Shown here: piece by piece, positions 31,569 to 32,411 of the stretch | Layout of the letters: every line of letters begins with the position of its first letter | Numbering within the stretch: the first letter of the stretch is position 1 | Virus genome (UHGV): UHGV-0090252 | DNA: 64,000 nt | Source of the DNA: a virus | Direction: 5' to 3' (one strand) | Notes under the pieces: model-generated | The model's database searches: none | Told to the model about the DNA's origin: nothing | The model's input: only the letters and a program-made list of their open reading frames with translations | Made by a program: the position numbers and the translations under genes

Positions 31569-31703
31569 ACCAGACCGTTGTTTATCATCTTAAGTGCTAC
31601 CATTACACCAACTCGACCTCTGCCGAGTGAAGGAATCGAACCTTCTCCTTTTCTTTACCGAGAAATAGATTGTTTAAGTTTTGCTGTAAACGGTCTTCTG
31701 TAA
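31569..31703 (-). ncRNA. candidate structured small RNA with tRNA-like T-arm module (Y-RNA-like, speculative)
   Basis: Closing helix AGACCGTT/AACGGTCT; interior has isolated T-arm GAAGG-TTCGATT-CCTTC and D-loop-like GTTGGTGTAATGGTAGCAC; no complete cloverleaf. Confidence 0.3.
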
Positions 31704-31713
31704 ATTTGTTGAG

Positions 31714-31790
31714 CCAGACCAAGTTTTAAATTTTTTCAAAATTGAATTGGCTTGAAAATATCATACGTACTTGCTGTATTTGGTCTTCTG
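31714..31790 (-). ncRNA. structured spacer domain with conserved closing helix
   Basis: CAGAAGACCAA ... TTGGTCTGG closing stem; shares the ACAGAAGACC..TACAGCAA motif with three other spacers. Confidence 0.3.
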
Positions 31791-31851
31791 CCCCTTTAAA
31801 GAATACTCGTAAGAACTCTTTAAGGGAGGGGCTAAATAGCCCTCTCAAAAT

Positions 31852-31929
31852 TGGCGGTTACGAAGGGATTTGAACCCTCATCATCTCCCGTGACAGGGGA
31901 GTATTTTAACCAAATTAAACTACATAACC
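31852..31929 (-). tRNA. tRNA-Asp (anticodon GTC)
   Basis: Anticodon stem CTCCC/GGGAG, loop CTGTCAC. Confidence 0.75.
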
Positions 31930-31934
31930 TTTAT

Positions 31935-32022
31935 TGGTGTGCCGTGTAGGAGTCGAACCTACCGAGTCTCAATGACAAGGGATTTACAGTCCCCACCGCT
32001 ACCATCTACGGGATAACGACAC
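31935..32022 (-). tRNA. tRNA-Tyr (anticodon GTA), long variable arm
   Basis: 88 nt type II; loop CTGTAAA. Confidence 0.7.
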
Positions 32023-32091
32023 ATTTAATTTCTATTCAGGCTAAGGACTTGCACCTTACAAATCGGTGAGCAATCGCTTCTCTCCTAAATT

Positions 32092-32168
32092 TGGCGGTTA
32101 GTCAGGGATTCGAACCCTGTGCCATTCGCTTAACAGGCGACCGCACATACCTTATGTGCTTCCTAACC
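32092..32168 (-). tRNA. tRNA-Asn (anticodon GTT)
   Basis: D-stem GCAC/GTGC, loop CTGTTAA. Confidence 0.7.
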
Positions 32169-32181
32169 ATGTTTAGTATTA

Positions 32182-32246
32182 CCAGACCGTATCTTTCAAT
32201 TTTTCCGCTAAAAATTTAATAAATATTGCTGTAAACGGTCTTCTGT
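32182..32246 (-). ncRNA. structured spacer domain with conserved closing helix
   Basis: AGACCGT ... ACGGTCT stem enclosing about 45 nt; conserved motif TTTACAGAAGACCGTTTACAGCAA starts 3 nt after tRNA 3' end. Confidence 0.3.
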
Positions 32247-32251
32247 AAATT

Positions 32252-32327
32252 TGGAGGCGGGTGCAGGAGTCGAACCTGCCGATACCATGCTAATGAGACA
32301 TGTGAGACGCCCTTTCTCTATACCCGC
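32252..32327 (-). tRNA. tRNA with anticodon CAT (second Met; could be initiator or Ile2 type)
   Basis: D-stem GAGA/TCTC, loop CTCATTA. Confidence 0.6.
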
Positions 32328-32340
32328 AATTCTTAATGAC

Positions 32341-32411
32341 CAGACCAAATATCTTCTTTGTCCGATTTCGTGTCAGATGAGTAGATTAAGTTTGCTGTAA
32401 TTGGTCTTCTG
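32341..32411 (-). ncRNA. structured spacer domain with conserved closing helix
   Basis: AGACCAA ... TTGGTCT stem; motif TTGACAGAAGACCAATTACAGCAA directly after tRNA-Glu 3' end. Confidence 0.3.

What the first reader, a model, noticed from the sequence alone, without database searches (positions are those of the whole stretch)
31569..32411. Conserved motif ACAGAAGACC(N3)TACAGCAA closing structured spacers directly after tRNA 3' ends
Four copies of a roughly 25-nt motif (minus-strand sense TTTACAGAAGACCGTTTACAGCAA and variants) sit 3-5 nt after tRNA 3' ends or inside spacers. Each copy can pair with a downstream GGTCTGG-containing segment to close a 50-110 nt domain (domains at 31569-31703, 31714-31790, 32182-32246, 32341-32411). 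Two copies also carry TTGACA or TTTACA -35-like hexamers. These could be processing signals, internal promoters, small RNAs or tiny mobile elements.
Basis: seen in the sequence. Interest (0 to 1): 0.6.

Follow-up and report, generated by a model that had tools for sequence, protein, structure and literature searches.

The report
Y-RNA-like partners of phage Ro60-like protein
The four repeats in this Felix O1-type phage's tRNA array look like small structured RNAs that share a conserved "handle", probably the docking site for the Ro60-like ring protein encoded just upstream, and the same handle sits beside that protein family's gene in very distant phages.

Summary
CAGAAGACC-N3-TACAGCAA occurs exactly four times, all on the minus strand. 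Each copy is followed by GGTCTGG, which closes a 70-137 nt domain.

The window is a Felixounavirus (99.9% to phage pinkbiff). The gene just upstream (32746-34161, DUF2828) has a predicted fold whose 12 best PDB matches are all Ro60/TROVE proteins.

Next to homologues of this gene that share only 29-48% identity, the same RNA module recurs on the gene's strand:
- a 7-bp helix whose sequence covaries freely;
- one nucleotide, then single-stranded U(A/U)CAGCAA;
- a variable insert;
- the 3' strand of the helix, then G.

This holds in IMG/VR contigs, bacterial assemblies, a mycobacteriophage and Listeria phages. Counts are 102 modules on the gene strand against 1 opposite, with a median distance of 350 nt.

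Element E4's insert is a permuted tRNA-like domain (V, T arm, acceptor-like hairpin, D arm), as in bacterial YrlA Y RNA.

Best reading: these are Y-RNA-like non-coding RNAs, released by tRNA processing and bound through the handle by the Ro60-like protein. Binding and expression are inferred, not shown. Promoter, mobile-element and plain processing-signal readings are poorly supported. No Rfam family or paper searched describes the handle. I class it as a new variant of a known kind.

The parts
32746..34161 (-). Gene for a 471-aa DUF2828/DUF7788 protein with a Ro60-like predicted fold (helical ring plus vWA domain with conserved DxSxS); the proposed protein partner
   Evidence: ORF. Pfam DUF2828 and DUF7788. 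PHROG 850 'RNA-binding protein'. AF2 model with pLDDT 87.9. Top 12 Foldseek PDB matches are all Ro60/TROVE (2i91 TM 0.64, E 7e-8). D279/S281/S283 are invariant in alignment A1.
32607..32727 (-). Two strong sigma-70-like promoters (TTGACA-17-TAATAT; TTGACA-18-TAAAGT) between the Ro60-like gene and tRNA-Pro; the likely source of the array transcript that carries E1-E4
   Evidence: Both score 10/12.
32337..32414 (-). Element E1. Lower stem UGAC (32411-32414) / GUCA (32337-32340); AGA bulge 32408-32410; helix P1 AGACCAA (32401-32407) / UUGGUCU (32342-32348); UACAGCAA 32392-32399; 43-nt insert; unpaired G 32341. Lies between tRNA-Glu and tRNA-Met.
   Evidence: (33.8 bits, E 1.4e-5).
32179..32248 (-). 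Element E2. Lower stem UUAC / GUAA; AGA bulge; P1 AGACCGU (32235-32241) / ACGGUCU (32184-32190); UACAGCAA 32226-32233; 35-nt insert. Lies between tRNA-Met and tRNA-Asn.
   Evidence: (34.3 bits, E 1.1e-5). The lower stem covaries to UUGC/GCAA in L001, L002 and SUSP2.
31711..31793 (-). Element E3. Lower stem GGGC / GCUC; AGA bulge; P1 AGACCAA (31780-31786) / UUGGUCU (31716-31722); UACAGCAA 31771-31778; 48-nt A/U-rich insert containing a hairpin.
   Evidence: (18.9 bits).
31567..31703 (-). Element E4, the YrlA-like member. Lower stem UUAC / GUAA; P1 AGACCGUU (31689-31696) / AACGGUCU (31572-31579); UACAGCAA 31681-31688; tRNA-like insert.
   Evidence: (z -2.4).
31589..31678 (-). tRNA-like module inside E4. 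Anticodon-stem-like CUUAA (31674-31678) / UUAAG (31589-31593); V hairpin 31646-31669; T arm GAAGGUUCGAUUCCUUC 31629-31645; acceptor-like hairpin ACUCGGC-AGAG-GUCGAGU 31611-31628; D arm GUGUAAUGGUAGCAC 31594-31608.
   Evidence: MFE fold. RNAalifold consensus with compensatory changes in the acceptor-like stem. Three stem versions. ARAGORN calls the circularly permuted sequence a tRNA, with the handle as a 41-nt 'intron'. Coordinates.
32419..32496 (-). tRNA-Glu; its 3' maturation would define the 5' end of E1
32252..32328 (-). tRNA-Met. RNase P cleavage at its 5' end would release the 3' end of E1, and its 3' maturation would define the 5' end of E2.
   Evidence: the processing is inferred.
32092..32168 (-). 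tRNA-Asn; RNase P cleavage at its 5' end would release the 3' end of E2
   Evidence: the processing is inferred.

Best explanation
E1-E4 are four small non-coding RNAs of the Y-RNA type, encoded inside the phage tRNA array directly downstream of a Ro60-like (DUF2828) gene. Each has two parts. The first is a shared 'handle': a 4-bp lower stem, a 5' AGA / 3' G internal loop, a 7-8-bp helix, and single-stranded UACAGCAA at the inner 5' side of that helix. The second is a variable insert. In E4 the insert is a permuted tRNA mimic (V arm, T arm, closed acceptor-like hairpin, D arm), as in bacterial YrlA.

Proposed mechanism:
- The array is transcribed from the two strong promoters at 32607-32727 (inferred).
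- RNase P and tRNA 3'-end maturation of the flanking tRNAs release E1 and E2 as RNAs of about 70-80 nt (inferred).
- The Ro60-like ring binds the handle (inferred from gene linkage and from operator-like copies over the gene's own ribosome-binding site in other phages).
- The inserts either recruit other factors or control access to the ring, as Y RNAs do for Ro60 (by analogy only).

Shown here: the motif, the covarying helix, the tRNA-like fold of E4, the Ro60-like predicted fold of the protein, and the strand-specific, close linkage of handle and gene across distant phages.
For: 1. Motif: four exact copies against 0.33 expected.

2. Protein: the AF2 model (pLDDT 87.9) has all of its 12 best PDB matches in Ro60/TROVE, including X. 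laevis Ro60, D. radiodurans Rsr and Thermus phage phiLo Ro60. PHROG 850 is named 'RNA-binding protein'.

3. Linkage in 80 IMG/VR loci whose homologues share mostly 39-48% identity. 64 of 96 same-strand TACAGCAA sites have a perfect helix of at least 6 bp that starts [A/U]G eight nt upstream and ends C[U/A] followed by G. Only 179 of 3240 random positions do. With NNCAGCAA, 102 modules lie on the gene strand and 1 on the opposite strand. 53 of 80 loci carry one, the median distance is 350 nt, and none lies inside the gene.

4. Covariation: six of the seven helix pairs change on both sides, with two to five pair types each; the second pair is always G-C.

5. Held-out test: the covariance model R1 finds 13 matches (E<=1) in 43 loci that gave no seed sequence, all on the gene strand.

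6. Second collection: among 63 Clostridia-type bacterial-assembly loci, ACAGCAA is the most enriched 7-mer near the gene. It is present in 54 of 63 on the gene strand and 5 of 63 opposite. T-loop GGTTCGA gives 50 against 4.

7. Cultured phages of other phyla: there are three tandem modules after the 'Ro-like RNA binding protein' of mycobacteriophage Nicholas. The middle one scores 37.9 bits against Rfam YrlA. Three modules lie upstream of the gene in Listeria phages LP-064 and CKA15.

8. Operator-like copies: eight loci carry a minimal handle hairpin that ends 0-1 nt before the Shine-Dalgarno sequence of the DUF2828 gene.

9. E4: the order V-T-AS-D matches YrlA as described in PMC4201824. The acceptor-like stem has three compensating versions. 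ARAGORN accepts the permuted form as a tRNA.

10. Literature: Bas63 gp130 is 97.9% identical to this protein. It was reported as Ro60-like and as a counter to the Ppl defence system, and the authors only guessed that some tRNA genes might be Y RNAs.
Against: - No binding, expression or end-mapping data exist for this phage; the RNA-protein link rests on genomic linkage.
- The protein matches Ro60 only by predicted fold. Pfam TROVE, phmmer and a profile search against PDB sequences find nothing.
- The canonical Ro60-binding motifs (GGUCCGA in animals, GNCGAAN0-1G in bacteria) are absent. Rfam YrlA does not match E4 even at E<=10.
- gp130 alone, from a plasmid or inserted in T7, restores plaquing on a Ppl strain. 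The RNAs are therefore not needed for that activity.
- The strict handle rule misses 27 of 80 viral loci and most Clostridia-type loci, where the register is shifted.
- Alignment A2 was selected for perfect helices, so its percentage paired is circular. The unbiased tests are the random-position control and the strand asymmetry.
- MFE z-scores of E1 and E3 are unremarkable (-1.3).
Confidence: 0.7

Rival explanations
1. The handle is a real RNA module, but another factor recognises it: a host RNase, an RNA repair enzyme such as RtcB, or another phage protein. Its position next to the DUF2828 gene would then reflect only a shared operon or a shared pathway.
For: No binding data exist. Listeria phage loci carry an RtcB-like ligase 1.3 kb downstream. 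The canonical Ro60-binding motif is absent. gp130 acts against Ppl without the RNAs.
Against: The DUF2828 gene was the search anchor, and no other neighbouring gene was seen to recur; gene content was listed for only a few loci. Handles lie a median of 350 nt from it on the same strand. Minimal handles sit directly on its ribosome-binding site in 8 loci, the usual layout for self-repression by an RNA-binding protein. RtcB is not annotated in the 4.8-kb pinkbiff stretch.
Confidence: 0.12
2. The motifs act in cis on the tRNA precursor as processing or punctuation signals. They would direct cleavage or protect tRNA 3' ends, and no stable RNA product with its own function would exist.
For: E1 and E2 start 3-4 nt after tRNA 3' ends and stop 8-10 nt before the next tRNA.
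Against: The same module occurs with no adjacent tRNA in mycobacteriophage Nicholas, where three tandem copies are followed by a terminator. It also occurs in the 5' leaders of DUF2828 genes. E3 and E4 are not next to a tRNA end. A conserved tRNA-like cargo domain is not expected of a simple cleavage signal. 21 of the 25 tRNAs in this array have no such motif next to them.
Confidence: 0.08
3. They are internal sigma-70 promoters (TTGACA/TTTACA as -35 boxes) that boost transcription of downstream tRNAs.
For: E1 carries TTGACA and E2/E4 carry TTTACA. E2 gives a 9/12 promoter-like match, TTTACA-16-AATATT.
Against: Seven promoter-like sites were found against 4.1 +/- 2.3 in shuffles, so 9/12 is background. 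E1, E3 and E4 give no match. The hexamers are the 5' strand of the lower stem and covary with the 3' strand (UUAC/GUAA to UUGC/GCAA). In other phages the flank is A/U-rich with no -35 box. The real promoters in this window score 10-11/12.
Confidence: 0.03
4. They are miniature mobile elements with terminal inverted repeats (CAGAAGACC ... GGTCTGG) that spread within the tRNA array.
For: There are four similar copies with inverted-repeat ends, and the handle sequences are nearly identical within one genome.
Against: All four sit at the same positions in Felixounavirus, Suspvirus and Mooglevirus. There are no copies elsewhere in 64 kb. No target-site duplications are visible in the printed flanks, though this was not searched systematically. 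In other phages the 'repeat' arms covary as RNA helices while the single-stranded ACAGCAA stays fixed, which is RNA-level selection.
Confidence: 0.03
5. E4 is just the decayed junction of two neighbouring tRNA genes: the 3' half of one and the 5' half of the next.
For: The order T arm, 3' acceptor strand, 4 nt, 5' acceptor strand, D arm is what a tRNA-tRNA junction looks like. The tRNAs in this array lie 1-8 nt apart.
Against: The two 'acceptor' strands pair with each other, and the pairing is kept by compensating changes in three versions. The whole unit is enclosed by the handle. The same permuted layout recurs inside handles in unrelated phages such as Nicholas, L025, L068 and L074. It may well be the evolutionary origin, but it does not describe the present state.
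Confidence: 0.03

Closest known systems
Bacterial YrlA / YrlB Y RNAs bound by Rsr (Ro60) in Salmonella Typhimurium and Mycobacterium smegmatis (Chen et al. 2014, PMC4201824; Rfam RF02553)
   Same: Several small RNAs are encoded within 2 kb of a Ro60-type gene on the same strand. Their ends pair into a stem next to a short conserved motif. One member carries a tRNA-like domain in the order V, T, acceptor-like hairpin, D, and the others are shorter hairpins.
   Different: The conserved motif is U(A/U)CAGCAA after a 7-bp helix, not GNCGAAN0-1G. Rfam YrlA does not detect E4. The protein is a DUF2828 member, recognisable as Ro60-like only by predicted fold. Here the genes are embedded in a phage tRNA array.
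Phage Y-RNA-like RNAs: mycobacteriophage YrlA (Chen 2014) and Yrl1/Yrl2 of Thermus phage phiLo (PMC12135203)
   Same: A phage-encoded Ro60 homologue has adjacent small RNAs. phiLo Ro60 is among the structural matches of this protein (9kop, 9l5y).
   Different: The phiLo RNAs were picked by a CGAA motif in an internal bulge. The 2014 search started from proteins annotated as TROVE. Felix O1-type phages and the ACAGCAA handle are not mentioned in the text I could read. The 2014 supplementary phage table was not available.
Metazoan Y RNAs bound by Ro60
   Same: Two-part design: a terminal stem with a bulge as the protein site, plus a variable effector loop. Several paralogous RNAs serve one protein.
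   Different: There is no sequence similarity. The animal site is a bulged helix containing GGUCCGA. Animal Y RNAs are Pol III transcripts with a La-binding tail.
Phage T4 stable RNAs C and D (species 1 and 2) in the T4 tRNA cluster (from my own knowledge, not tested here)
   Same: Small stable RNAs of unknown function are co-transcribed with phage tRNAs and released by tRNA-processing enzymes.
   Different: No Ro60-like partner or ACAGCAA handle is known for them, and I made no comparison here.

Membership tests
Y RNA / Ro60 ribonucleoprotein (functional class) | RNA gene lies within about 2 kb of a Ro60-family gene, on the same strand | tested here: met
   E1-E4 start 332-1043 nt downstream of the stop of the 32746-34161 gene, on the same strand. 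The same holds for 102 modules in 80 loci, with a median distance of 350 nt.
Y RNA / Ro60 ribonucleoprotein (functional class) | Partner protein has the Ro60 architecture (helical-repeat ring plus vWA domain with a MIDAS motif) | tested here: met
   The AF2 model's top 12 PDB matches are all Ro60/TROVE, with query-normalised TM 0.42-0.66. DxSxS is invariant. This is a predicted structure only.
Y RNA / Ro60 ribonucleoprotein (functional class) | Partner protein matches the TROVE domain by sequence | tested here: not met
   Pfam gives only DUF2828 and DUF7788. phmmer and a profile search against PDB sequences find no Ro60.
Y RNA / Ro60 ribonucleoprotein (functional class) | 5' and 3' regions pair into a stem that carries the conserved protein-binding site | tested here: met
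   The closing helix covaries, as does the lower stem. An invariant G-C pair, the 3' G and ACAGCAA are conserved.
Y RNA / Ro60 ribonucleoprotein (functional class) | Canonical Ro60-binding sequence (GGUCCGA in animals, GNCGAAN0-1G in bacteria) | tested here: not met
   Not present in E1-E4. The motif definitions come from PMC4201824.
Y RNA / Ro60 ribonucleoprotein (functional class) | RNA is physically bound by the Ro60 protein and depends on it for stability | not testable with these tools
   Needs immunoprecipitation, gel-shift assays or a deletion strain.
YrlA (Rfam RF02553) | Score at or above the Rfam gathering threshold (69 bits) | tested here: not met
   No YrlA match to 31540-31860 even at E<=10, nor in 27000-33500 at E<=1. 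The related Nicholas element scores 37.9 bits.
YrlA (Rfam RF02553) | tRNA-like domain in the order V arm, T arm, acceptor-like hairpin, D arm | tested here: met
   Met for E4 only. E1-E3 lack it and resemble the shorter YrlB type.
YrlA (Rfam RF02553) | [quoted passage not shown] | not testable with these tools
   E4 has a 7-bp acceptor-like stem. Chen et al. link that feature to RNase P cleavage. This is inference only.
tRNA genes | Called by ARAGORN or the Rfam tRNA model | tested here: not met
   None of E1-E4 is called. E4 is called only after artificial circular permutation with an intron allowed.
Sigma-70 promoters | -35 and -10 hexamers with 16-18 nt spacing, above background | tested here: not met
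   E2 scores 9/12. E1, E3 and E4 give no match. Site counts are near the shuffled expectation.
Miniature inverted-repeat mobile elements | Dispersed copies, presence/absence polymorphism and target-site duplications | tested here: not met
   Copies occur only in the array and are syntenic across three genera.
Intrinsic terminators | G+C-rich hairpin followed by a U tract | tested here: not met
   No minus-strand terminator-like site lies inside E1-E4.

The most novel reading that the evidence does not exclude
The ACAGCAA handle is a general address tag. It loads many different RNA cargos onto a large, previously unrecognised branch of Ro60-like rings (DUF2828) found in phages of Proteobacteria, Firmicutes and Actinobacteria. 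The cargos include tRNA mimics, a complete tRNA (L037) and several large conserved structured RNAs of 180-230 nt. These particles would be a widespread phage tool against host defences or for RNA surveillance. The Listeria phage homologue was detected in purified virions, so the particles may even be packaged and delivered with the genome.
Probability: 0.3. Interest if true: 0.85.

Novelty: new variant of a known kind. Interest (0 to 1): 0.7.

Why it matters
Ro60 and its Y RNAs are conserved from bacteria to humans, but their bacterial and phage roles remain poorly understood. This analysis makes three concrete contributions.

- It names specific candidate RNA partners for the Ro60-like protein of Felix O1-type phages. 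The Bas63 orthologue of that protein was recently reported to counter the Ppl defence system, and its RNA partners were only guessed to be tRNAs.
- It gives a simple signature: a helix, then U(A/U)CAGCAA, then the return strand followed by G. That signature lets candidate partner RNAs be found beside DUF2828 genes in very different phages, including Listeria and mycobacterial phages.
- It shows that these candidate RNAs carry diverse inserts, which hints at many different recruited activities.

The idea is directly testable by pull-down, gel shift and deletion in an existing genetic system (Bas63). It would also correct database records that place 'hypothetical protein' genes over these RNAs.

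Tried and rejected
- Rfam scans of the array (E<=1), of E3/E4 (E<=10) and of 11 related loci (gathering threshold) found only tRNAs, a group I intron and chance sub-threshold hits.
- Duplex-energy scoring of the upstream 12 nt against downstream sequence was not discriminating, because the stems are A/U-rich and stronger alternative pairings compete. I replaced it with a rule-based helix search that has a random-position control.
- Sequence searches of the protein and its family profile against PDB sequences found nothing relevant. Only the fold comparison worked.
- Model R1 was built from mini-constructs and cannot span long inserts. It recovers E4 only partly and misses long-insert members.
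- The strict handle rule fails in Clostridia-type loci because the helix register shifts by one.
- I tried to tie the Listeria phage CKA15 handles to the 'highly transcribed non-coding regions' reported for that phage. The one region with published coordinates (26,236-26,727) is not the handle cluster, and the other two have no coordinates in the text. This remains inconclusive.
- The leader of the window's own Ro60-like gene has no handle.
- The supplementary phage table of Chen 2014 and the 2020 Annual Review were not available. One literature search was wasted on terms that were too general.
- Hairpin-ribozyme and other self-cleaving ribozyme resemblances were considered from memory and dropped after the Rfam scans.
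Full report
**Where the window comes from.** The region around the finding is 99.9% identical to Escherichia phage pinkbiff. It has full-length matches in 238 records of Felix O1-type phages. The finding lies inside a minus-strand array of 25 tRNA genes at 27689-32580.

**Checking the observation.** CAGAAGACC-N3-TACAGCAA occurs exactly four times with no mismatch, all on the minus strand. Shuffled sequence gives 0.33 expected, and no shuffle reaches four. GGTCTGG follows each copy. Single-sequence folds pair AGACCNN with NNGGUCU. 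They add a 4-bp lower stem separated by a 5' AGA bulge and a 3' unpaired G. Exact coordinates are:
- E1: 32337-32414
- E2: 32179-32248
- E3: 31711-31793
- E4: 31567-31703

E1 and E2 each sit between two tRNAs. They start 3-4 nt after the upstream tRNA and end 8-10 nt before the next one.

**The neighbouring gene.** The ORF that ends 166 nt upstream of the first tRNA (32746-34161, 471 aa) matches Pfam DUF2828 and DUF7788 and PHROG 850, 'RNA-binding protein'. Sequence searches against solved structures find nothing. I predicted its structure from 36 diverse homologues (pLDDT 87.9). The 12 best Foldseek matches in the PDB are all Ro60/TROVE proteins: X. laevis Ro60 (TM 0.64-0.66), D. radiodurans Rsr and the Ro60 of Thermus phage phiLo. 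A DxSxS motif at the start of the vWA-like domain is invariant in the family. Ro60 proteins work with small Y RNAs encoded next to them. In bacteria one such RNA, YrlA, contains a tRNA-like domain (PMC4201824).

**E4 is tRNA-like in the YrlA manner.** Inside its handle, E4 folds into four parts in this order:
- a V-like hairpin;
- a T arm (GAAGG-UUCGAUU-CCUUC);
- a 7-bp hairpin in the place of the acceptor stem;
- a D arm (GUGU-AAUGGUA-GCAC).

All four are joined to the handle by a 5-bp stem, CUUAA/UUAAG. This is the V-T-AS-D order described for YrlA. The acceptor-like hairpin exists in three mutually compensating versions across the subfamily:
- ACUCGGC/GUCGAGU in this window;
- ACACG/CGUGU in SUSP2 and Sf13;
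- ACCCUUC/GAAGGGU in Mordin and Mijalis.

I cut E4 open at the hairpin loop and rejoined it at its ends. ARAGORN then calls it a tRNA with a long variable arm and treats the handle as a 41-nt 'intron' in the anticodon loop. Rfam's YrlA model does not detect E4.

**The handle is linked to this protein family far beyond Felix O1-type phages.** I fetched 80 viral contigs around homologues of the protein, most at 39-48% identity. TACAGCAA lies on the gene's strand right next to the gene in dozens of them, often in two to four copies. The layout is fixed: [A/U]G begins a 7-bp helix eight nt upstream of U(A/U)CAGCAA, and after a variable insert the return strand ends C[U/A], followed by G.
- Helix test: 64 of 96 same-strand TACAGCAA sites have a perfect helix under this rule, against 179 of 3240 random positions.
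- Strand and distance: with NNCAGCAA allowed, 102 modules lie on the gene strand and 1 on the opposite strand. 53 of 80 loci carry one, the median distance is 350 nt, and none lies inside the gene.
- Covariation: the helix sequence differs freely between phages. Examples are AGAUUAGG/CCUAAUCU, AGGAUGC/GCAUCCU, AGAGUGU/ACACUCU, UGGUUCC/GGAACCA and, here, AGACCGU/ACGGUCU. Six of the seven pairs change on both sides, and the second pair is always G-C. That alignment was selected for pairing, so the random-position control and the strand asymmetry are the fair tests.
- Held-out test: a covariance model built from it finds only the four elements in the window. It finds 13 matches, all on the gene strand, in 43 loci that gave no seed sequence.

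**Replication elsewhere.**
- In bacterial and metagenome-assembled genomes, closer homologues again carry handles upstream.
- In a Clostridia-type subgroup the strict rule fails. ACAGCAA is still the most enriched 7-mer near the gene, in 54 of 63 loci on the gene strand against 5 of 63 opposite. T-loop and D-arm words are enriched with it, and the helix register is shifted by one.
- Mycobacteriophage Nicholas has three tandem modules right after its 'Ro-like RNA binding protein', followed by a terminator and with no tRNA beside them. The middle one has T, AS and D arms and scores 37.9 bits against Rfam YrlA, below the 69-bit threshold.
- Listeria phages LP-064 and CKA15 have three modules 75-330 nt upstream of the gene and an RtcB-type ligase 1.3 kb downstream.

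**Hints that the handle is the protein's binding site.** In eight loci a minimal handle (helix, NACAGCAA, 8-17-nt loop) ends 0-1 nt before the Shine-Dalgarno sequence of the DUF2828 gene. This is the usual layout for an RNA-binding protein that represses its own translation. The inserts enclosed by handles are very diverse:
- short hairpins;
- permuted tRNA mimics;
- in L037, a complete tRNA that scores 52.9 bits;
- several conserved inserts, from about 70 nt up to 180-230 nt.

A constant docking module with variable cargo is the known design of Y RNAs.

**Rivals.**
- Promoters: only E2 gives a 9/12 match, which is background. Two 10/12 promoters lie upstream of the array. The TTGACA/TTTACA hexamers are the 5' strand of the lower stem and covary with its 3' strand.
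- Mobile elements: the four copies are syntenic in Felixounavirus, Suspvirus and Mooglevirus and occur nowhere else in the window.
- tRNA-specific processing signals: the module also occurs away from tRNAs.
- Decayed tRNA junction: the acceptor-like hairpin covaries.
- The strongest remaining rival is that a factor other than the DUF2828 protein reads the handle.

**What is known already.** The following points bear on novelty:
- Phage Ro60 homologues with nearby Y-like RNAs are known in mycobacteriophages and in Thermus phage phiLo. Those RNAs were defined by a CGAA-type motif.
- For Felix O1-type phages, a 2024 preprint reported that Bas63 gp130 resembles Ro60 and counters the Ppl defence system. 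Bas63 is phage JohannRWettstein, and gp130 is 97.9% identical to this protein.
- That preprint only speculated that some annotated tRNA genes might be Y RNAs.
- gp130 alone rescued T7 on a Ppl strain, so the RNAs are not required for that effect.
- A Listeria phage study speculated about Y RNAs near the homologous gene and found the protein in virions.
- I found no Rfam family or paper that describes the ACAGCAA handle.
- GenBank records leave the elements unannotated or place a 'hypothetical protein' over E4.

**Verdict.** The most likely identity is a set of Y-RNA-like non-coding RNAs that partner a divergent Ro60-like protein, with a docking motif not described in Rfam 15 or in the papers I could search. 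The motif, helix covariation, tRNA mimicry, predicted protein fold and gene linkage are shown here. Expression, processing by tRNA enzymes, binding and function are inferred.

Noticed in passing
window 31421-31568 (minus strand): A roughly 150-nt spacer between E4 and tRNA-Lys folds into a domain closed by a helix of about 24 bp. MFE is -48.3 kcal/mol against -29.7 +/- 3.7 for shuffles (z = -5.0). It has no ACAGCAA handle and no Rfam match. It is a candidate for a further structured RNA.
   Followed up: partly
window 31794-31851 (minus strand): Two back-to-back hairpins lie between tRNA-Asp and E3 (GAGAGGGCUAUUUAGCCCCUC and CUUAAAGAGUUCUUACGAGUAUUCUUUAAAG). Neither has a U tract. They were read from the sequence only.
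   Followed up: no
window 30280-30534, 30625-30862, 30940-31186, 32023-32091 (minus strand): Other long non-tRNA spacers in the array. Some give weak sub-threshold Rfam hits (tmRNA-like, tRNA-Sec-like). An 11/12 promoter sits at 31143-31171.
   Followed up: no
L011 1764-1800, L053 5907-5943, L006, L015, L024, L028, L047, L065: Minimal handle hairpins end 0-1 nt before the Shine-Dalgarno sequence of the DUF2828 gene. They look like translational operators for self-repression.
   Followed up: partly
L037 5734-5835: Here a handle (AGGUUAGU-UUCAGCAA ... ACCUAACCU-G) encloses a complete tRNA in normal order (Rfam tRNA 52.9 bits at 5753-5824), not a permuted mimic.
   Followed up: partly
L006 4840-5070, L007 2843-3065, L015 628-835, L024 5409-5660, L028 5066-5320; also L047, L053, L065, L067, L068: At least three further families of conserved inserts are enclosed by the same handle: two of 140-230 nt and one of about 70-110 nt. 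Shared blocks include ...AAAGGUUCGAAC...UUGUCCCUUACA, ...GGCUUGCGGAACUGAACCGAUAUACUGGGGAA...GGCAAGCAGAAAAUAAAAUAC and ...CCUUUCUGGAGGGGAAAGCAAAAACUCGCCAAAA. None is in Rfam.
   Followed up: no
L090 5813-7024 and L091 5810-7021 (Listeria phages LP-064, CKA15): An RtcB-type RNA ligase gene lies 1.3 kb downstream of the DUF2828 gene. This echoes the rsr-yrlBA-rtcBA operon of Salmonella. The CKA15 homologue was reported in purified virions (PMC12282133).
   Followed up: no
L083 2699-2929 (pinkbiff_41); L086 359-505: Database records place 'hypothetical protein' coding sequences over E4 or E3/E4. These are probably false gene calls.
   Followed up: partly
window 27863-28660 and 29049-29606 (minus strand): Two protein-sized ORFs (265 and 185 aa) are embedded in the tRNA array. 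They were not analysed.
   Followed up: no
window 15136 (minus strand): One further NNCAGCAA site (CACAGCAA) passes the handle rule with a 6-bp helix. About four such chance hits are expected among the 67 other sites, so it is probably chance.
   Followed up: no
L025 11696-11922: A group I intron (Rfam 71.5 bits) lies in a contig that also carries the DUF2828 gene and handles.
   Followed up: no
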